A DNA stretch of 64,000 bases from an uncultured virus (IMG/VR IMGVR_UViG_3300021365_000007) (Duplodnaviria; Heunggongvirae; Uroviricota; Caudoviricetes), in the IMG/VR virus record IMGVR_UViG_3300021365_000007; one strand, 5' to 3'. Shown here piece after piece: positions 8,180 to 40,095 of this stretch. The translations under genes were made by a program, and so were the position numbers. The notes under the pieces were generated by a model. That model was not told the origin of the DNA. It saw only the letters and a list, made by a program, of their open reading frames with translations, and ran no database searches. Each line of letters starts with the position of its first letter. The stretch's first letter is position 1.

Positions 8180-10051
8180 TTATTTCTCCCATGTTTTCGA
8201 TATGTTTGTGTCTGCTTTAAGCAAACCATTAGGTATAATTACTTTAGCAGCCTTCTCCATGAGCTCAGTCATCTTGACTGACCATGCTTCAGCTACATCT
8301 TCTTTACACACACAATCAATCTGATCGTGTACAGTCATAATAATCTTCACAGTATCTGACCATGACTCTTCTATCTCTCTATGTATATAAATAAGAGCCA
8401 GTTTAGTCATGTCAGCAGATGAACCTTGAATTGGGGTATTCTTAGATGCACGCTCGATACTACCAAGCTCCATCATCTTACTCCTGTCATCATACATTTT
8501 AGGGTACCAGCTATCAAACCAACGCCTCCTGTAAAAGGGAGCAAAGGTTTGTATATAACCATTACGTTTACCATATGTACCAAGTTTCTCTAGAAATGCC
8601 CTGATATTAGGGAACTCTGTAAAGTATTTCTCTATAAGATCTTGTGCTTGCTTCTTAGTTATCTGTAAAGTATCAGCTAATTTGAAAGGACCCATTCCGT
8701 AGGCCAAACCGAAGTTGATAGCTTTGATTTGGGTTCTAAGCTTTTTCCGTGCACTAGCGTCAGCATCTCGCCATTTATCTTCAAATACGAGATCTGCACA
8801 TACTCCGTGTAAGTCCATGCCTTTGGACAAAGCATCAAGCCACACTGGATCTTGACTCCCGTATGCAATGACATTTAGTTCCTGACTAGAGTAATCACTG
8901 GATACAAAGACCCATCCCTCTTCAGTAATGAAACAGTTTCGAAAGGTATTATCGCTGGGAATCTGTTGCATGTTAGGTTTACTAGAAGAGACTCTCCCTG
9001 TATCAAGTATTTGTGAGAAATTTGTATGGACTCGTCCATCAGCGTTGACGTAATTGAAGAACTTAGTACCGTAGGCATTTGCGAGTTTGGTTCTTTCCTT
9101 ATAGCGTATATATTCATCGATTAATTTGTGTTTGTACCTGTGTTTATTTAAGTTCTTTCCGTTAACATCCTCAAGACTTGGCACTAAGTTCTTGAATAGT
9201 CTGAGTGTTTGCATAGGGGAACCCCAATTGATAGCAGTATGTCTTACCTCTTCAATAGGAGCAAACATGTCTGCTTGTATTGGGATACGATAGTGTTGTA
9301 ACAAATCATGTTCCAATACCATATTATCTAACTGTAACTCCTGTTCATATGCCAGCTTGACGTTTTTCTCTGCCATAACTGTCCATTTATCCTTATCAAT
9401 AGCTAAGCCTTCGTATTCTATTTCAGCAAATACTTTAACTACCTCATTCTCAAGACGGGCAGTCTGTTCCAATTGATGCGTACGTAACGACGGTAATTGT
9501 TTTTCCCTGATGTCAAGCAGATAAATAACATCGTTTGCCCCATAGGTAATCTGATCGATCGTATATGGTTGACCCGTGAGCCCAATGAACTTATTTCTCG
9601 TCGTCTTATCCAAATTAATACTGAGGTACCTATCGACACACCTTGCGAGTGAGTAACCGTAGTCTTGTTTACCGCAATTGATAACTCTTTCCGTAAGAAA
9701 CGTATCGTATATGTTTTTGACATCGATGTTTGCCCATCGCTTGATGAATTTATAATCGAACTTTGCGTTATGAAATATCTTAATAATTTTCTCATCTTCT
9801 AATATATCTTTTAGTGGAGTAACATCCACAACACGTGTGTCTATCACATATTGTCTATCCTTATCCCCAATCTGAAGCATTATCATCTTCTTACAAGTGA
9901 AGTCAAAGCCTTCTGTTTCTGTGTCTACCCCAAGAACAGGTTTGTCCTTACAATATGACACACAGTCATCAATTGTTGTTACTTGAATCGTCGACGTGTT
10001 CAATAGAGCGTTCTGCCCTATGAATCTTATCTTGTTTGAATTGTTCATCAT
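8180..10051 (-). CDS. polA: DNA polymerase family A with 3'-5' exonuclease
   Basis: Exonuclease DTET and HNAKFD; TGRVSS, motif A DYSSQE, motif B RTQIKAINFGLAYG (Phe at the 762-equivalent), motif C VHDQ. Start probably MM at 10051 (ORF track uses 10078). Confidence 0.95.
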   Translation of the reverse strand: MMNNSNKIRFIGQNALLNTSTIQVTTIDDCVSYCKDKPVLGVDTETEGFDFTCKKMIMLQIGDKDRQYVIDTRVVDVTPLKDILEDEKIIKIFHNAKFDYKFIKRWANIDVKNIYDTFLTERVINCGKQDYGYSLARCVDRYLSINLDKTTRNKFIGLTGQPYTIDQITYGANDVIYLLDIREKQLPSLRTHQLEQTARLENEVVKVFAEIEYEGLAIDKDKWTVMAEKNVKLAYEQELQLDNMVLEHDLLQHYRIPIQADMFAPIEEVRHTAINWGSPMQTLRLFKNLVPSLEDVNGKNLNKHRYKHKLIDEYIRYKERTKLANAYGTKFFNYVNADGRVHTNFSQILDTGRVSSSKPNMQQIPSDNTFRNCFITEEGWVFVSSDYSSQELNVIAYGSQDPVWLDALSKGMDLHGVCADLVFEDKWRDADASARKKLRTQIKAINFGLAYGMGPFKLADTLQITKKQAQDLIEKYFTEFPNIRAFLEKLGTYGKRNGYIQTFAPFYRRRWFDSWYPKMYDDRSKMMELGSIERASKNTPIQGSSADMTKLALIYIHREIEESWSDTVKIIMTVHDQIDCVCKEDVAEAWSVKMTELMEKAAKVIIPNGLLKADTNISKTWEK

Positions 10052-10211
10052 ACATAAATAATAATATTTGGTTTGCATCTGCTATAGAGTAAGACTTACC
10101 AAGAAAAGATACATCTTCCCTGTTAGAATCTTTACTAGCTTTAATCAATCTGCGTAGTAAATCTACGTTGTTGTTGCGGATTATCTCCGCAATCTGTTTC
10201 ATTTTACCCAT
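9969..10211 (-). CDS. Hypothetical protein
   Basis: 80 aa starting MGKMKQI; overlaps the polA start. Confidence 0.6.
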   Translation of the reverse strand: MGKMKQIAEIIRNNNVDLLRRLIKASKDSNREDVSFLGKSYSIADANQILLFMYDEQFKQDKIHRAERSIEHVDDSSNNN

Positions 10212-10231
10212 TTTAAACTTGTTTGATATTA

Positions 10232-10313
10232 ATAGTCACCGTTATAGGAGTCGAACCTATTATATCTTAACTAAACTTCACTAAAATTAAGTATACTAAC
10301 CACTAGACGGTGA
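10232..10313 (-). ncRNA. tRNA-like element 1 (non-canonical cloverleaf)
   Basis: TCACCGT/ACGGTGA outer stem, AGTGGTT D-like loop, ~11-bp arm in place of the anticodon arm, ATAGG-TTCGACT-CCTAT T arm, 3' CTATT. Confidence 0.7.
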
Positions 10314-10342
10314 GAAAAGGGTGAGCTGTTACACTCACCCTT
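10314..10342 (-). terminator. Hairpin after the 10353-10934 gene
   Basis: AAGGGTGAG/CTCACCCTT 9-bp stem with a short U-rich tail on the minus strand. Confidence 0.6.
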
Positions 10343-10352
10343 AGTTTTGTAC

Positions 10353-10934
10353 TTACGACATAATCTCTCCTGTCGTAACATTCACATTCTGAGCAGCAAT
10401 GATACCACCTGTTGTTGCAGGTGCATCGCTCTCAAGGAACGTGTGCTGGGCTTCCCCGCTAACAACTTGAGTGTTAGCAAAGATGTACATACCCTGATGT
10501 GTGATGTAATCACCATCCTTTCCACGACGCTTCGCAGCTGTCTCAATGTTCATCGACTGGTACTCCGATGGCTCAGTTGATTCGTTCACTTGTACGTGAA
10601 GAACTGTGCCACCCATACTAGGGTTAAGAACATTCAACGGCTTGATATCTCTACCACGCTCGTCTGTCGTGTAACCTGATGATAAATCAACACCCAAGAT
10701 TTCAGCTGCATCAGCTGGCTCACAAGTAAGCCAAGCACGACGTGCCCCACCTTGAGAGAATCTCTCATCAGATTTGTTAAACATACCCAATAGGTTATTG
10801 CTTGATGATCCACCTTCAAGGCGTTCAGCAACTTCCAATTGGATTTTACCATTAGCTACTCTTCGTGAAGACACGAGCAAGCTATCTCCTGGATTTAGGG
10901 TATCCAGAGAACCACTGTTTAATGTATTTTCCAT
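10353..10934 (-). CDS. Hypothetical protein flanked by the two tRNA-like elements
   Basis: 193 aa, beta-rich, frequent CGT/GGT codons as in the capsid gene. Confidence 0.85.
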   Translation of the reverse strand: MENTLNSGSLDTLNPGDSLLVSSRRVANGKIQLEVAERLEGGSSSNNLLGMFNKSDERFSQGGARRAWLTCEPADAAEILGVDLSSGYTTDERGRDIKPLNVLNPSMGGTVLHVQVNESTEPSEYQSMNIETAAKRRGKDGDYITHQGMYIFANTQVVSGEAQHTFLESDAPATTGGIIAAQNVNVTTGEIMS

Positions 10935-10997
10935 GATGTTATGGTGTATTACATGTATTTAAATGTTGGAGACTATTAATGGTCGTCTCCTTAACCA

Positions 10998-11086
10998 ATA
11001 GTTACACGTAGGGGAGTCGAACCCCATTGCTATTCTCTATGCGCAAAGAATAACAATCCATTCGGAACCACCCGAATTACGTGTAA
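10998..11086 (-). ncRNA. tRNA-like element 2 (non-canonical cloverleaf)
   Basis: TTACACGTA/TACGTGTAA, ATTCGG-GTGGTT-CCGAAT, 11-13-bp long arm, GGGG-TTCGACT-CCCC, 3' CTATT. Confidence 0.8.
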
Positions 11087-11092
11087 TACCAA

Positions 11093-11410
11093 CTAGTTCG
11101 CCCATCTTTCATTAAGGAACTCATCAGTTGGGTACTTGATTCTATATAAATAGTCATCAAAGTTATCGTGATCAACTGCCATTGTAAGACGTGTATTATT
11201 ACGACGAACAACTATATTAGACATCTCTACCTTTATTGTGTCTACATTACAAGTAGATAAATTGGTGACAACTATATGACGCATACCGTTAATGAACTGA
11301 CATAAATGTTCTTCATCATTATCATCTTCGATAGAACCAAAGTAACCACACTGAGTGTACCCAATTAAGGATACACTCATTAGTATAGTAAGTAAGAGAG
11401 AGTATTTCAT
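11093..11410 (-). CDS. Secreted hypothetical protein
   Basis: Signal-peptide-like MKYSLLLTILMSVSLIGYTQ. Confidence 0.75.
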   Translation of the reverse strand: MKYSLLLTILMSVSLIGYTQCGYFGSIEDDNDEEHLCQFINGMRHIVVTNLSTCNVDTIKVEMSNIVVRRNNTRLTMAVDHDNFDDYLYRIKYPTDEFLNERWAN

Positions 11411-11596
11411 TTAGCTGTTAGTATTAAGTGCTTTAACTATTTCTTCAAGCTTAATTTCTTCTAGATTTAATGCATCTACTTCTTTACGTATCTGAGTAAT
11501 TCTATTTAATGAATCATCTCTAAGCTTTGATTGATTAGTAAGATGCTGATTGTAATCTTGTTGGATTGGGGTTAACTGAATGTTTTTCGTATTCAT
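11411..11596 (-). CDS. Small coiled-coil protein (61 aa)
   Basis: Likely start MNTKNI at 11596 after TTAAACTTTACAAT; the upstream extension in the track lies in structured RNA. Confidence 0.7.
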   Translation of the reverse strand: MNTKNIQLTPIQQDYNQHLTNQSKLRDDSLNRITQIRKEVDALNLEEIKLEEIVKALNTNS

Positions 11597-11629
11597 ATTG
11601 TAAAGTTTAATTAATAAATAAAGGGGAAT

Positions 11630-11980
11630 GAATAGCAATCTTATCACGTTCGCTTGGGTTATGATCCCAGGAATTATGGCGTGGCCGAAGCTCTTATAAC
11701 CCTTATTCCGCATACGTCTTGCGCCTGCAGTAACACTGATGAGAGGACGACACCATCAACACCATAGATTACTATTCAAAGTGTTAGCAGTTTGTCTTCA
11801 TGCTAAGGAATACGACGATGATCACGTCCTTTCTAATATGGAAATCTCGTTACTGTTTAAGCCTAAAGCTATCCGAGTATTAGGGAACGACCCGACGAGA
11901 TAATAAAGAAGGAAAGCTACAACCCGTGGTTATTTTTACGCCTTAGCTGAGCAGGCAACCTTAAGGCTGTTAGCTTCCCC
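11630..11980 (-). ncRNA. Cluster of four structured non-coding domains
   Basis: Closing stems at 11630-41/11766-77, 11784-89/11801-06, 11844-50/11895-901 and 11911-11980; G-U pairs favour the minus strand. Confidence 0.6.
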
Positions 11981-11997
11981 ATTATTAATTGAATTCG

Positions 11998-12066
11998 TTA
12001 CGACATAACAAACACATAGTTATAATGTGTTGTCATGTCTTCTAAGGCTACTGAATAAGCGTCCAT
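11998..12066 (-). CDS. 22-aa early micro-ORF
   Basis: MDAYSVALEDMTTHYNYVFVMS after TTTAAACTTCACAATC, the same leader motif as neighbouring ORFs. Confidence 0.5.
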   Translation of the reverse strand: MDAYSVALEDMTTHYNYVFVMS

Positions 12067-12120
12067 GATTGTGAAGTTTAAAGGTTTGTGTAATAGTATT
12101 GTATGTTACCTAAAGTATTA

Positions 12121-12150
12121 GGTGGTAAATAGTGGTAGAATGTGGTGAAT
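12121..12150 (+). repeat. Three 10-bp-period direct repeats NGTGGTRRAW
   Basis: ggtggtaaat agtggtagaa tgtggtgaat. Confidence 0.6.
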
Positions 12151-12216
12151 ACAGCCTGGTGACCGTACTCACACACATTAACGGTTATCGTTATAAAGAG
12201 TAGAAGAACCAAAGAA

Positions 12217-12384
12217 TCACGACTGTGATTCCTGGAACTTGAGAATGTCAAGACCGAGCTGACTGCGCGAGTTGACAAAGATAGGCTTGTCTATCTGTGT
12301 TGCTCCTGTCTTCTGGTCTACTGTACCTTGGTCTGCGATTAGCCATTGGCCATCTTTGCTGAGAATAAATGCTGATGCGTTCAT
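12217..12384 (-). CDS. First ORF of the leftward arm (55 aa)
   Basis: MNASAFILSKDGQWLIADQG... after ATTAAACTTCATTACA. Confidence 0.7.
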   Translation of the reverse strand: MNASAFILSKDGQWLIADQGTVDQKTGATQIDKPIFVNSRSQLGLDILKFQESQS

Positions 12385-12497
12385 TGTAATGAAGTTTAAT
12401 GTGAGTGCTTGAGGGGGCACTTTGGAACCCGAAAAGTAGTGCGGGTCTTTGATCGTGTTGGGTAACGCTTTCAAAAATTTCCCAAAAAAAATTTTTC

Positions 12498-12505
12498 TAT
12501 ATTTG
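12498..12505 (+). promoter_or_regulatory. -7 promoter box TATATTTG
   Basis: Matches TAnnTTTG; 4 nt before the ATG at 12510. Confidence 0.65.
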
Positions 12506-12509
12506 CATT

Positions 12510-12641
12510 ATGAAAAAAACAAATCACCAACTTTACGTAGCAAACGATGCTTCACGTCCTGGAGTGCACGCAAAAACTAAAAACTCAAACAACAAAACTT
12601 CTAAGCACTACAAAAAAAAGTATCGAGGGCAAGGAAGATAA
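12510..12641 (+). CDS. 43-aa basic peptide ending KKYRGQGR
   Basis: Hand translation MKKTNHQLYVANDASRPGVHAKTKNSNNKTSKHYKKKYRGQGR; similar C-termini are recalled from small marine phage proteins. Confidence 0.7.
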   Translation: MKKTNHQLYVANDASRPGVHAKTKNSNNKTSKHYKKKYRGQGR

Positions 12642-12653
12642 AGTATATTTTAT

Positions 12654-12661
12654 TATATTTG
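12654..12661 (+). promoter_or_regulatory. -7 promoter box TATATTTG heading the structured RNA
   Basis: Matches TAnnTTTG; shares upstream AAGATAAAGT with the 13414 promoter. Confidence 0.6.
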
Positions 12662-12664
12662 CAT

Positions 12665-12908
12665 CGAAACCACTTTAGTGACCGTCCTTTAGGTAATCAT
12701 AATAGGACTAGACATCGGGTTAAAGTAGCTGTCAACATAGTCAGTGAAAGTCGTCCCCGGTAGTTTCAAAAAGTGCGTTGGTATAAAACTCGGGTGGGAC
12801 AAGGCTATAGGCTGATAGAAATGCCCCCACGTAGGCTAAACACGGCGAGTGGAAATCCAACGTTTGACTGAAAACCAAGGGGGTGAGTTATATCCTTTTG
12901 TAACTTTA
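12665..12908 (+). ncRNA. Large structured non-coding RNA or 5' leader
   Basis: No ORF of 60 aa or more; GC-richer than flanks; at least seven nested stems and a 7-bp pseudoknot. Confidence 0.6.
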
Positions 12909-38926: not shown

Positions 38927-39268
38927 ATGGGATTAAATACAACAACCGATAGATTGTTAGATAAGTTAACAAAAGCTCACGAGGATATGATTGCACCTCA
39001 CAATACAGTGTACCTTACAGGAACAAAAGCTTTTACAGGACCTTTTTATGCAATTACAGCTTTAACAGAAACTGTAATTGATGCAAGTGAAGGTGACACT
39101 AACATTGTAGAAAGTGATGATTCAGGGTCAATGCAAAATTTATCAGGAACTTTAACAATTCCTGCAGGCGTTACTATTTATGGTAATTTTGGAGTTGTTG
39201 AACTAGATAGTGGAACTGCAGTAGGTTATGCAAAACGTGGAGTAACAGTAGCAGTAGCAGGATCGTAA
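38927..39268 (+). CDS. Small virion-module beta protein
   Basis: TIPAGVTIYGNF..VELDSG. Confidence 0.65.
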   Translation: MGLNTTTDRLLDKLTKAHEDMIAPHNTVYLTGTKAFTGPFYAITALTETVIDASEGDTNIVESDDSGSMQNLSGTLTIPAGVTIYGNFGVVELDSGTAVGYAKRGVTVAVAGS

Positions 39269-40095
39269 TGTTAGGATTAGGACTTGGAGCAGGAAAATTA
39301 AGTTATGTACCCGTAGCAGGAGCAGGGTACACAAACGCACAATCAATTGACCTTGATGGTACAGGTGATTATGTAGAAACAAATTATACTGCAGCAGCTT
39401 TACAAACTTTGATACGTGGTAATTTTAGTGTTTCTATGTGGATAAGAGCTCCTTATAATGCTAGTTTTCATTTGTTTGGATATGACGATACAGGTAGTAG
39501 TGTTGCGGGAAGGTTCGAAGTAAACTATTTATACTTTGGTGCACTTGATGCTTTTCAAGCTACTGGTAAATCAAGTAATCAAAATTGGAGTACTATAACT
39601 TCTGTTAACCCAACTGCAACAAACACTCCAAACGCCTGGATACATGTAGCATATACAGTAATAAAAGGACCAGACAACTCCACTAACGGTACACATAATA
39701 TATATATAAATGGATCGTTATTAGCATCTGCTGCTACGCAGACGAAAAACTATTTTGAAGCTACTGAAGTAAGTACTAGTGGGGTCGCACGAGGGCTTGC
39801 TATTGGAGCAAAAAATACTAATGGTACTGTAGGTCAACATATGACTGGGCAAATAGATGAAGTTGGTATATTTGGTGTTGCTTTAGATGCAGACGCTGTA
39901 GCAGCTATATATAATTCAGGAGTACCATTTGATCTTACAGAAAATAATGGTAATTATGATACTTCTCTTAAATTAGCTCGTTATTATAGATTTGAAGGCA
40001 CAGATCAAACTGCGCTACAATTAGATAGAGGTAAAAATGAAGTAAATATAACGCTAGAGGGAAATCCAACAGCTAGTAGTGAAGTACCAAGTTAA
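39268..40095 (+). CDS. LamG/concanavalin-A-like lectin-domain protein
   Basis: LDGTGDYV, FSVSMW, WIHVAY, GQIDEVGIF, IYNSG motifs. Confidence 0.8.
   Translation: MLGLGLGAGKLSYVPVAGAGYTNAQSIDLDGTGDYVETNYTAAALQTLIRGNFSVSMWIRAPYNASFHLFGYDDTGSSVAGRFEVNYLYFGALDAFQATGKSSNQNWSTITSVNPTATNTPNAWIHVAYTVIKGPDNSTNGTHNIYINGSLLASAATQTKNYFEATEVSTSGVARGLAIGAKNTNGTVGQHMTGQIDEVGIFGVALDADAVAAIYNSGVPFDLTENNGNYDTSLKLARYYRFEGTDQTALQLDRGKNEVNITLEGNPTASSEVPS

What the first reader, a model, noticed from the sequence alone, without database searches (positions are those of the whole stretch)
10266..10287. Long arm of tRNA-like element 1 is antisense to the start regions of three early ORFs
Seen: the arm reads AUUUUAGUGAAGUUUAGUUAA. 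The three most upstream leftward ORFs share the leader TTAAACTTYA. Pairing is 18 nt with one mismatch and two G-U to 12383-12400 (reaching the AUG at 12384), a perfect 10 nt to 12071-12080, and 15 contiguous nt with two G-U to 11600-11614. Inference: a natural tRNA-scaffolded antisense RNA that shuts off the earliest genes or similar host leaders. Caveat: Bacteroidota leaders are A-rich, so U-rich matches arise easily, and part of the seed lies within the stem.
Basis: partly seen in the sequence, partly recalled or inferred. Interest (0 to 1): 0.75.

Follow-up and report, generated by a model that had tools for sequence, protein, structure and literature searches.

The report
tRNA-shaped antisense RNA of a marine crAss-like phage
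A marine crAss-like phage carries a tRNA-derived RNA whose anticodon arm has been replaced by a hairpin that matches, in antisense, the start regions of its first early genes, and related phages with different hairpins match their own start regions, so it is probably a small regulatory RNA built on a tRNA frame.

Summary
On the minus strand at 10313..10236 lies a tRNA-shaped element with a good acceptor stem and T arm. Its anticodon arm is a 7-bp stem with a 12-nt loop (10291..10266).

In the window alone the signal is moderate. The three leaders rank 1, 2 and 3 of 62 start regions (third-best reached by 2 of 400 shuffled arms). Equal-energy chance sites exist elsewhere in the 64 kb.

Related marine phage contigs give the stronger evidence. 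The element keeps its place and its tRNA frame through compensatory changes, while the arm differs in every lineage. In six arm types the arm matches its own first-gene leader. Lineage 1d, L013 and seven further arm types give nothing; for L057 and L058 the first gene was not identified.

Expression, processing and the direction of regulation are not shown, and a strand-polarity test could not exclude a DNA-level inverted repeat.

Best reading (about 0.5): a tRNA-scaffolded antisense RNA acting on early-gene start regions. It works like the RNase P-processed C4 RNA of phages P1 and P7 but is unrelated to it. This scan noted a similar tRNA-shaped antisense RNA on other DNA.

The parts
10236..10313 (-). 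tRNA-like element 1 (78 nt). Acceptor stem 10313-10307 with 10242-10236. T arm 10260-10244. Weak D arm. No encoded CCA.
   Evidence: ARAGORN calls it tRNA-Thr(agt) with the anticodon at position 31. Rfam gives no tRNA match at gathering score or at E<=5.
10266..10291 (-). The long arm that replaces the anticodon arm: a 7-bp stem (two A-U-rich strands) with a 12-nt loop TTAGTGAAGTTT at 10284-10273. This is the antisense segment.
10317..10342 (-). G+C-rich hairpin followed by a T run, ending 3 nt before the element's 5' end. It is terminator-like on both strands. Its position is conserved in related loci.
12383..12400 (-). Target site A: leader and first bases of the AUG of ORF A. Pairs with the arm over 18 nt (one mismatch, two G-U).
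   Evidence: (duplex -14.8, net -6.9 kcal/mol after opening costs).
12071..12080 (-). Target site B: 10-nt perfect complement, 4 nt upstream of the ATG at 12066 (22-codon ORF B).
   Evidence: (net -8.8).
11600..11614 (-). Target site C: 15 contiguous pairs (two G-U), ending 3 nt upstream of the ATG at 11596 (61-aa ORF C).
   Evidence: (net -10.4).
12217..12384 (-). ORF A (55 aa), the first leftward gene. It is preceded by a G+C hairpin and followed by a terminator-like hairpin at 12233-12212. Orthologues are present in 7 aligned lineages.
10353..10934 (-). Conserved 193-aa gene of unknown function. Its 3' end marks the position of element 1 in all related loci.
   Evidence: RNA contigs of relatives cover 10367-10991.
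11002..11085 (-). tRNA-like element 2 (acceptor TACACGT/ACGTGTA, a 14-bp arm with a 4-nt loop). It is a second member of the same kind of tRNA frame. No clear target was found.
   Evidence: (z -4.78).

Best explanation
Element 1 is a tRNA-derived RNA that no longer decodes. Selection keeps its acceptor stem and T arm. These are the parts that RNase P, RNase Z and the CCA-adding enzyme recognise, so they could release and stabilise the RNA from the leftward operon transcript. The anticodon arm has been replaced by a lineage-specific hairpin. The loop of that hairpin and its adjoining strand base-pair with the 5' leaders and start codons of the first leftward genes: ORF A, and in this phage also ORFs B and C.

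Bacteroidota-type messages have no Shine-Dalgarno sequence and need an open, A-rich start region. Pairing from -17 to +2 would therefore most likely block initiation. The result would be a delayed shut-off of the earliest genes once the downstream RNA accumulates.

Shown: the fold conservation, the complementarity, and its co-variation across lineages.
Inferred: expression as a discrete RNA, processing, trans action and repression.
For: 1. The frame is under selection.
- In 22 elements at the same genomic position the acceptor stem forms 7 of 7 pairs in 20 and 6 of 7 in 2.
- Each stem position shows 2 to 6 different pair types, counting the three non-pairing cells.
- The T loop is nearly invariant.

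2. It is not a decoding tRNA.
- Interior lengths range from 39 to 86 nt.
- ARAGORN gives Thr(agt), Tyr(ata), Lys(ttt), or 2- and 4-letter 'anticodons', or nothing, at the same position.
- Rfam gives no tRNA match.
- A distant relative (L088) has a canonical tRNA-Thr(tgt) there, which suggests the origin.

3. In the window, leaders C, A and B rank 1-3 of 62 start regions. The third-best value is reached by 2 of 400 shuffled arms.

4. Co-variation. ORF A is orthologous across WIN, L019, L016, L003, L022, L005 and L024.
- Longest perfect Watson-Crick run, own arm against own ORF A leader (-30..+6): WIN 9, L019 10, L016 10, L003 11, L022 10, L026 8. Cross-lineage pairs are mostly 4-7.
- Shuffled arms reach the observed run in 79, 11, 9, 4, 3 and 40 of 5000 trials respectively.

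5. An unbiased scan of each whole locus on the sense strand puts the longest perfect match inside the ORF A leader in L019 (tied with leader B), L016, L003, L022 (a three-way tie: the ORF A leader, a second leader, and one site away from any leader) and L026, where it is the only match of 8 nt or more.

6. Extended pairing in two lineages.
- In L016 the interior pairs with the leader in four colinear blocks from -41 to +3. The duplex is -44.8 kcal/mol against -24.1 +/- 3.7 for shuffles (0 of 500).
- L056 has the same leader but a different arm: -20.7 against -13.5 +/- 3.0 (5 of 500).

7. Close polymerase relatives that lack the element (L095, L112, L114) also lack the TAAACTTCA motif in the corresponding leader.

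8. Net interaction energies after opening costs remain favourable in the window: -6.9, -8.8 and -10.4 kcal/mol.
Against: - No evidence of expression. RNA contigs from 4 metatranscriptome runs covered only 10367-10991, and they came from relatives 90-99% alike.
- The element's own fold is not more stable than that of shuffles: z -0.61, with 52 of 200 shuffles folding as well.
- Genome-wide, chance sites of equal or better energy exist.
- Energy-based tests over all ATG windows are weak: WIN 2/200, L003 8/200, L019 15/200, L016 24/200, L022 28/200. The 13 other loci tested (11 further arm types) give 49-196 of 200.
- Lineage 1d (L005, L024) and L013 show no leader match (run of 5). L057 and L058 show nothing of 9 nt or more. 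The 9-nt hit in L005 lies inside a gene on the opposite strand.
- The pairing site shifts between lineages. It lies next to the ATG in some and in the upstream hairpin loop in L016 and L026.
- Part of the seed lies in the arm's own stem.
- The strand-polarity test was neutral: the sense polarity was better in 6 of 13 pairs and the mirror polarity in 7 of 13.
- A terminator-like hairpin directly precedes the element, so its transcription needs read-through or an unseen promoter.
- The three window leaders share a motif that may partly reflect a local duplication around the 389-nt noncoding insert.
Confidence: 0.5

Rival explanations
1. The tRNA-like element has another job, and the leader complementarity is chance or a by-product. 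Possible jobs are an RNase P/Z cutting signal that punctuates the operon transcript, a 3' stabiliser for the 193-aa gene message, or a decoy for a host tRNA-targeting defence.
For: - It sits in an intergenic spacer directly after a hairpin.
- Arms are hypervariable, as expected for an unconstrained or arms-race region.
- Eleven or more arm types show no leader signal.
- Of 16 other tRNA-like elements tested, none had a top match inside a start region. One lay 34-43 nt and one 13-22 nt upstream of an ATG.
- Chance sites of equal energy exist in the window.
Against: - None of these jobs predicts that six different arms each carry their longest match to their own ORF A leader.
- L016 at -44.8 kcal/mol, reached by 0 of 500 shuffles, is hard to credit to chance.
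- Processing and antisense action are compatible, not exclusive.
Confidence: 0.2
2. The same complementarity acts in cis. The leader and the element, about 2.1 kb apart on one long early transcript, pair to close the transcript or to form a double-stranded cutting site. This would resemble the way flanks of rRNA precursors pair for RNase III.
For: - Both partners are on the same strand, in the same transcription direction.
- L016 pairing is long and colinear: 34 pairs over 45 nt.
Against: - Terminator-like hairpins follow ORF A (12233-12212) and precede the element, which suggests separate transcription units.
- Leader B has its own promoter-like sequence (read).
- Three separate leaders are matched in this window, which fits a diffusible RNA better.
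Confidence: 0.12
3. The match is a DNA-level inverted repeat. It could be a pair of recombination (inversion) sites, or an inverted copy of the early promoter or leader region captured in the arm, with no RNA pairing role.
For: - The polarity test shows no preference for the transcribed strands (6 against 7 of 13).
- Co-variation is also expected for recombination partners.
- tRNA anticodon arms are classic integrase target shapes (from general knowledge).
Against: - No integrase, invertase or other recombinase was found among 52 ORFs of the window scanned against Pfam. The window is not the whole genome.
- All contigs that carry the region keep one orientation.
- Perfect cores are short (8-11 bp) and interrupted.
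- One partner lies in the exposed arm of a structured RNA and the other in mRNA start regions, which is the pattern of RNA regulators.
Confidence: 0.1
4. It is a working tRNA (the Thr(agt) that ARAGORN names) with an enlarged anticodon loop or a short intron.
For: - The ARAGORN call.
- The cloverleaf frame.
- A canonical tRNA-Thr(tgt) at the same place in L088.
Against: - The loop is 12 nt, not 7.
- No anticodon is conserved among orthologous elements.
- No Rfam tRNA match even at E<=5.
- No splicing endonuclease or RNA ligase among 52 ORFs.
- The phages carry ordinary tRNAs elsewhere.
Confidence: 0.03

Closest known systems
C4 antisense RNA of phages P1 and P7 (Rfam C4 family)
   Same: - It is a phage-encoded antisense RNA of about 77 nt, cut from a longer transcript by RNase P.
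- Its loops pair with the leader of phage genes and partly cover the ribosome-binding site.
- P1 and P7 differ by a few loop bases and by matching target bases, which is co-variation of RNA and target.
- Sources: passages of PMC5320573 and PMC11143913. The original papers were not held.
   Different: - No sequence or structure match to the Rfam C4 model.
- C4 is three stem-loops, not a cloverleaf with a canonical T arm.
- By recall, C4's targets lie downstream in its own operon, whereas here they lie about 1.3-2.1 kb upstream.
- The hosts are enterobacteria with Shine-Dalgarno sites, whereas this phage infects a Bacteroidota-type host.
Engineered 'tRNA scaffold' RNAs, in which a foreign RNA is inserted in place of the anticodon arm (recalled from the literature; not read here)
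   Same: Same architecture: the acceptor, D and T arms are kept for processing and stability, and a payload hairpin takes the place of the anticodon arm.
   Different: Those are man-made. This would be a natural case with an antisense payload.
Phage-encoded decoding tRNAs
   Same: - Acceptor stem and T arm.
- Location among early and replication genes.
- Probable descent from a tRNA-Thr gene (L088).
   Different: - A 12-nt loop on a 7-bp stem.
- No conserved anticodon.
- Not recognised by the Rfam tRNA model.
tRNA-linked regulatory hairpins of murid gammaherpesvirus 68, and other viral tRNA-like structures (recalled, not read here)
   Same: A viral tRNA-like unit serves as the processing handle for a regulatory RNA.
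   Different: - There the hairpins follow the tRNA-like unit and yield microRNAs in an animal host.
- Here the hairpin is inside the cloverleaf and the host is a bacterium.
Abundant early non-coding RNAs of Cellulophaga crAss-like phage phi14:2
   Same: - The preprint 10.1101/2020.03.07.982082 (passages) reports two long intergenic regions of the early module. They are transcribed above most genes, are present from the first time point, and do not decline.
- ARAGORN reports a tmRNA-like, tRNA-ended call inside that region.
   Different: - No sequence relation to this window was found.
- Their function is unknown.
- No arm-to-leader analysis was done on phi14:2 here.

Membership tests
Decoding tRNA | Cloverleaf with a 7-bp acceptor stem and a canonical T arm | tested here: met
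   Acceptor stem 7 of 7 pairs. T loop TTCGACT on a 5-bp stem.
Decoding tRNA | 5-bp anticodon stem with a 7-nt loop, and an anticodon conserved among orthologues | tested here: not met
   The window has a 7-bp stem with a 12-nt loop. Interiors range from 39 to 86 nt. ARAGORN anticodon calls disagree or fail among the orthologous elements that were scanned.
Decoding tRNA | Match to the Rfam tRNA covariance model | tested here: not met
   No match at gathering score in 64 kb. No tRNA match at E<=5 in 9900-12900.
C4 antisense RNA (P1/P7) | Match to the Rfam C4 model (sequence and structure) | tested here: not met
   No Rfam match.
C4 antisense RNA (P1/P7) | Loops complementary to the leader and ribosome-binding region of the phage's own genes, co-varying with the target | tested here: met
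   This is a functional likeness only.
C4 antisense RNA (P1/P7) | 5' end made by RNase P from a longer precursor | not testable with these tools
   It is only inferred from the tRNA frame. RNA contigs did not cover the element.
Trans-acting base-pairing small RNA | Made as a discrete, stable small transcript | tested here: inconclusive
   Contigs from four RNA runs cover only the neighbouring gene, and contigs cannot show RNA ends.
Trans-acting base-pairing small RNA | Seed complementarity to target start regions, maintained by compensatory change | tested here: met
   Six arm types match their own ORF A leader. Lineage 1d, L013 and the seven further arm types do not. L057 and L058 could not be tested at the leader.
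Intron-containing tRNA | Bulge-helix-bulge or group I intron, with a splicing enzyme available | tested here: not met
   The insert is only a few nt. No Rfam intron match. No endonuclease or ligase domain in 52 ORFs.
Invertible DNA segment (site-specific inversion) | A recombinase gene, and both orientations seen among copies | tested here: not met
   No recombinase domain in 52 ORFs of the window. All related contigs show one orientation. The rest of the genome and raw DNA reads were not examined.

The most novel reading that the evidence does not exclude
Marine crAss-like phages use a family of re-targetable, tRNA-framed guide RNAs. The cloverleaf frame recruits the host's tRNA-processing enzymes. 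The swapped-in arm sets the target, and arm and leader co-evolve so that each phage lineage controls (and perhaps excludes relatives through) its own early genes. The several other tRNA-like elements with variable arms in the same early regions, and the abundant early non-coding RNAs of phi14:2, would be further members aimed at phage or host messages not yet identified.
Probability: 0.22. Interest if true: 0.85.

Novelty: new variant of a known kind. Interest (0 to 1): 0.68.

Why it matters
- It would be a natural counterpart of the engineered tRNA scaffold.
- It would be a second, unrelated example, after C4 of P1 and P7, of a phage antisense RNA that borrows tRNA processing.
- It would give a first post-transcriptional control of early genes in Crassvirales. 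The hosts (Bacteroidota) lack Shine-Dalgarno-led initiation, and their small-RNA biology is little known.
- It explains why tRNA finders report odd 'tRNAs', such as Thr(agt) with a misplaced anticodon, in such phage genomes.
- The frame plus a swappable arm could serve as a knock-down tool in Bacteroidota.
- The co-varying arm and leader pairs give ready-made compensatory mutants for a clean test.

Tried and rejected
- Expression. Six marine metatranscriptome runs held about a tenth of the sampled words of 10200-12450. Four were laid. Their contigs cover only 10367-10991, the 193-aa gene, in relatives 90-99% alike. The lack of cover over the element and the leaders says nothing either way.
- No whole genome is held for the window.
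- DNA search of the phage collection with 9900-12700 found no match. The terminase is at most 44% identical to known crAss-like phages.
- Duplex-energy statistics with whole arms were noisy and mostly weak. Perfect-run statistics were sharper.
- Generalising to the other tRNA-like elements failed: 16 interiors were scanned and there is no consistent leader targeting. The top match of window element 2 is a 10-nt site at 11630-11639, 34-43 nt upstream of the ATG of ORF C. A class-4 element in L024 and L028 has a 10-nt match at -22..-13 of a 61/63-aa ORF. The rest look random.
- The 9-nt match of the lineage 1d arm next to an ATG in L005 and L024 was rejected, because that ORF overlaps a longer gene on the opposite strand.
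- The G-U polarity test was neutral.
- Opening-energy sums for the long duplexes of other lineages were not meaningful, because the simple duplex routine over-extends them.
- The phi14:2 early region gave one doubtful T-arm element and an ARAGORN tmRNA-like call. These were not pursued.
- Literature searches for a natural tRNA-framed antisense RNA in phages found none. PMC10690425 (passages) lists predicted tRNA-like structures in phages without such a role.
- No supplementary files were consulted.

Full report
**Setting.** The window is part of a marine crAss-like (Crassvirales-type) phage.
- Terminase, portal, major head protein, tail-ring proteins and very large virion proteins run rightward from about 12,500.
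- Primase, helicases, an annealing protein and a family-A DNA polymerase run leftward from about 12,400.
- The terminase is at most 44% identical to any phage in the reference collection.
- A type IX secretion sorting domain in a tail protein points to a Bacteroidota host. So do TAnnTTTG-like boxes before the rightward genes (read; the consensus is recalled).
- No whole genome is held.

**The observation.** On the minus strand, 10313..10236 folds as a cloverleaf.
- The acceptor stem is 7 bp (TCACCGT/ACGGTGA).
- The T arm is ATAGG-TTCGACT-CCTAT.
- The D arm is weak.
- Where the anticodon arm should be there is a 7-bp A/U-rich stem closing a 12-nt loop, TTAGTGAAGTTT.
- ARAGORN reports it as tRNA-Thr(agt) with the anticodon at position 31.
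- Rfam reports nothing, either at gathering score over 64 kb or at E<=5 over 9900-12900.

The motif TTAAACTTYA occurs three times in the window, all on the minus strand and each just upstream of an ATG at 12384, 12066 and 11596.

**Chance within the window.**
- The motif count alone is unremarkable: 14 of 100 shuffles give 3 or more.
- A scan of all positions on both strands finds several unrelated sites of equal or better duplex energy.
- Among 62 start regions the three leaders rank first, second and third (-15.6, -14.8, -13.1), and the next is -11.0.
- Shuffled arms reach the best value in 16 of 400 trials and the third-best in 2 of 400.
- After subtracting the cost of opening both partners, the interactions stay favourable at -6.9, -8.8 and -10.4 kcal/mol.
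- The three leaders share a motif and are not independent, so the window by itself gives only moderate support.

**Relatives: the frame.** The 193-aa gene just upstream of the element (10353-10934) retrieved 13 viral and 40 metagenome loci. An alignment of it retrieved 48 viral loci, 14 of them already among the 13 and 34 new. The polymerase retrieved 80 more, some from the same contigs.
- In relatives down to about 62% identity, and again in a 50-58% group, a tRNA-shaped element sits at the same place, usually right after a G+C hairpin with a T run.
- Across 22 such elements the acceptor stem is fully paired in 20 and has one mismatch in 2. Each position shows two to six pair types, counting the three non-pairing cells, which means compensatory change.
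- The T loop is nearly invariant.
- The interior ranges from 39 to 86 nt and shares no sequence between lineages.
- ARAGORN's anticodon calls at this position are contradictory or absent.
- One distant relative (L088) has an ordinary tRNA-Thr(tgt) there.

The element is therefore a selected, tRNA-derived frame whose anticodon arm is free to be replaced.

The element is absent from some close polymerase relatives (L095, L112, L114). These carry a different gene of about 191 aa at that place, and their corresponding leader lacks the TAAACTTCA motif.

**Relatives: co-variation.** The first leftward gene, ORF A, is orthologous in the window, L019, L016, L003, L022, L005 and L024.

| Lineage | Longest perfect run, own arm against own ORF A leader (-30..+6) | Shuffled arms reaching it (of 5000) |
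|---|---|---|
| Window | 9 | 79 |
| L019 | 10 | 11 |
| L016 | 10 | 9 |
| L003 | 11 | 4 |
| L022 | 10 | 3 |
| L026 | 8 | 40 |
| L005 / L024 | 5 | not significant |
| L013 | 5 | not significant |

- Foreign arm-to-leader pairs mostly give runs of 4-7. They are higher only where leaders share sequence.
- A scan that ignores gene positions gives the same picture. The longest sense-strand match in the whole 4.8-8.6-kb locus falls in the ORF A leader in L019 (tied with leader B), L016, L003, L022 (a three-way tie: the ORF A leader, a second leader, and one site away from any leader) and L026.
- The matched leader sequences differ: TAAACTTCA, TCAAACCCCC, AATCCCTTTAC, CAAACTTTAT and AACCATCC.
- In L016 the interior pairs with the leader in four colinear blocks from -41 to +3. 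The duplex is -44.8 kcal/mol against -24.1 +/- 3.7 for shuffles, 0 of 500.
- L056 has the same leader and a different arm, and gives -20.7 against -13.5 +/- 3.0, 5 of 500.

**Against.**
- Lineage 1d, L013, L057 and L058 show nothing convincing. An apparent 9-nt hit in lineage 1d lies in a spurious ORF.
- The group with a canonical D arm (L070-L086) shows nothing convincing either.
- Energy-based tests over all ATG windows are weak even in the positive lineages.
- The pairing site moves between the ATG-proximal leader and the upstream hairpin loop.
- The element's own fold is no more stable than that of shuffles.
- Sixteen other tRNA-like elements in these early regions do not follow a leader rule.
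- Comparing the transcribed polarity with its mirror gave 6 against 7 of 13, so wobble pairs do not show that the match is used as RNA.
- RNA contigs of four metatranscriptomes cover only the neighbouring gene.
- A terminator-like hairpin stands directly before the element.

**Mechanism.** The most economical reading is a tRNA-framed antisense RNA.
- The frame lets host tRNA-processing enzymes release and stabilise it from the operon transcript.
- The arm then pairs with the start regions of the earliest genes, which in an SD-less host should block initiation.
- Because the RNA is encoded about 2 kb downstream of its targets, it would act as a delayed shut-off.
- Only the fold conservation, the complementarity and the co-variation are shown. 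The rest is inference.

The rivals are: another function with chance matches; cis pairing within one long transcript; a DNA-level inverted repeat, for which no recombinase was found among 52 ORFs and no inverted arrangement among related contigs; and a true tRNA.

**What is known.**
- The closest system is the C4 antisense RNA of P1 and P7. It is about 77 nt, its 5' end is made by RNase P, its loops pair with the leader and the ribosome-binding region, and a few loop and target bases differ between the two phages. The sources are passages of PMC5320573 and of PMC11143913. The original papers were not held.
- The present element does not match the Rfam C4 model and has a different, cloverleaf architecture.
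That note is unchecked here except for the C4 literature.
- Four full-text searches found no natural tRNA-framed antisense RNA in phages.
- The phi14:2 preprint (passages) reports abundant, persistent non-coding RNAs from the early region of a cultured marine crAss-like phage. That makes stable early RNAs in this group plausible, but it is not linked to this element.

**Verdict.**
- It is a new variant of a known kind.
- Probability is about 0.5 for a functional arm-to-leader RNA pairing, and lower for the specific shut-off role.

Noticed in passing
window 10940-11000 (minus), and the same place in L001, L003, L005, L006, L009, L010, L023, L026, L057: A conserved hairpin lies about 45 nt upstream of the 193-aa gene's ATG (GGAGAC...GTCTCC in the window). 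Five of its 6 pairs show compensatory changes in 10 sequences. A second helix (TGGT.../...ACCA) interleaves with it, which suggests a pseudoknot. It may be a translational operator of this gene, which is covered by RNA contigs in four marine metatranscriptomes.
   Followed up: partly
window 11002-11085 (minus): Second tRNA-like element: acceptor TACACGT/ACGTGTA and a 14-bp arm with a 4-nt loop, fold z -4.78. Homologues with different arms occur in L001, L016, L023 and L055. Its longest match in the neighbourhood is a 10-nt site at 11630-11639, 34-43 nt upstream of the ATG of ORF C. That match is not significant on its own.
   Followed up: partly
window 11612-12000 (minus): A 389-nt stretch without a credible ORF, richer in G+C, lies between the 22-codon ORF B and ORF C. 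Fold z is -2.3 and there is no Rfam match. Pieces of it recur at other positions in L001, L003 and L005. It is flanked by two copies of the TTAAACTTYACAAT leader, so it may be an inserted structured RNA that duplicated the leader.
   Followed up: partly
L003, L004, L005, L020, L021, L024, L025, L027, L028, L036 (upstream of the 193-aa gene): Further families of tRNA-like elements (acceptors TAGTGCG and TAGTATG, and others). Inserts of very different length sit at the tip of a conserved long arm, with up to three elements in a row (L027 281-594).
   Followed up: partly
ORF A leaders: window about 12405-12425 (minus); L016 975-1000; L005 2350-2375: A G+C hairpin precedes ORF A in every lineage, for example GGCGG-TCAAACC-CCCGCC. 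Its loop is close to the complement of a tRNA T-loop segment. It may be an early promoter or a stabiliser, and in L016 and L026 it is the site matched by the arm.
   Followed up: no
L093 (Cellulophaga phage phi14:2) 4031-4500 and 1772-1850: ARAGORN reports a 470-nt 'tmRNA' inside the long non-coding early region that the phi14:2 preprint found highly transcribed. A T-arm-bearing element lies at 1772-1850. Large tRNA-ended RNAs may be common in marine crAss-like early regions.
   Followed up: no
L001 4166-4200 and 4869-4900: Two copies of a ~45-nt intergenic element (AAGTGAATAAACTCACCTAATAG...) lie before successive genes downstream of the polymerase. This looks like a repeated promoter or leader. 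It pairs moderately with the L001 arm.
   Followed up: no
window 39268-40092 (plus): A tail-region protein with a concanavalin-like lectin domain. It has weak sub-threshold Pfam similarity to sialidase and neurotoxin receptor-binding folds, so it is probably a glycan-binding receptor-recognition protein.
   Followed up: no
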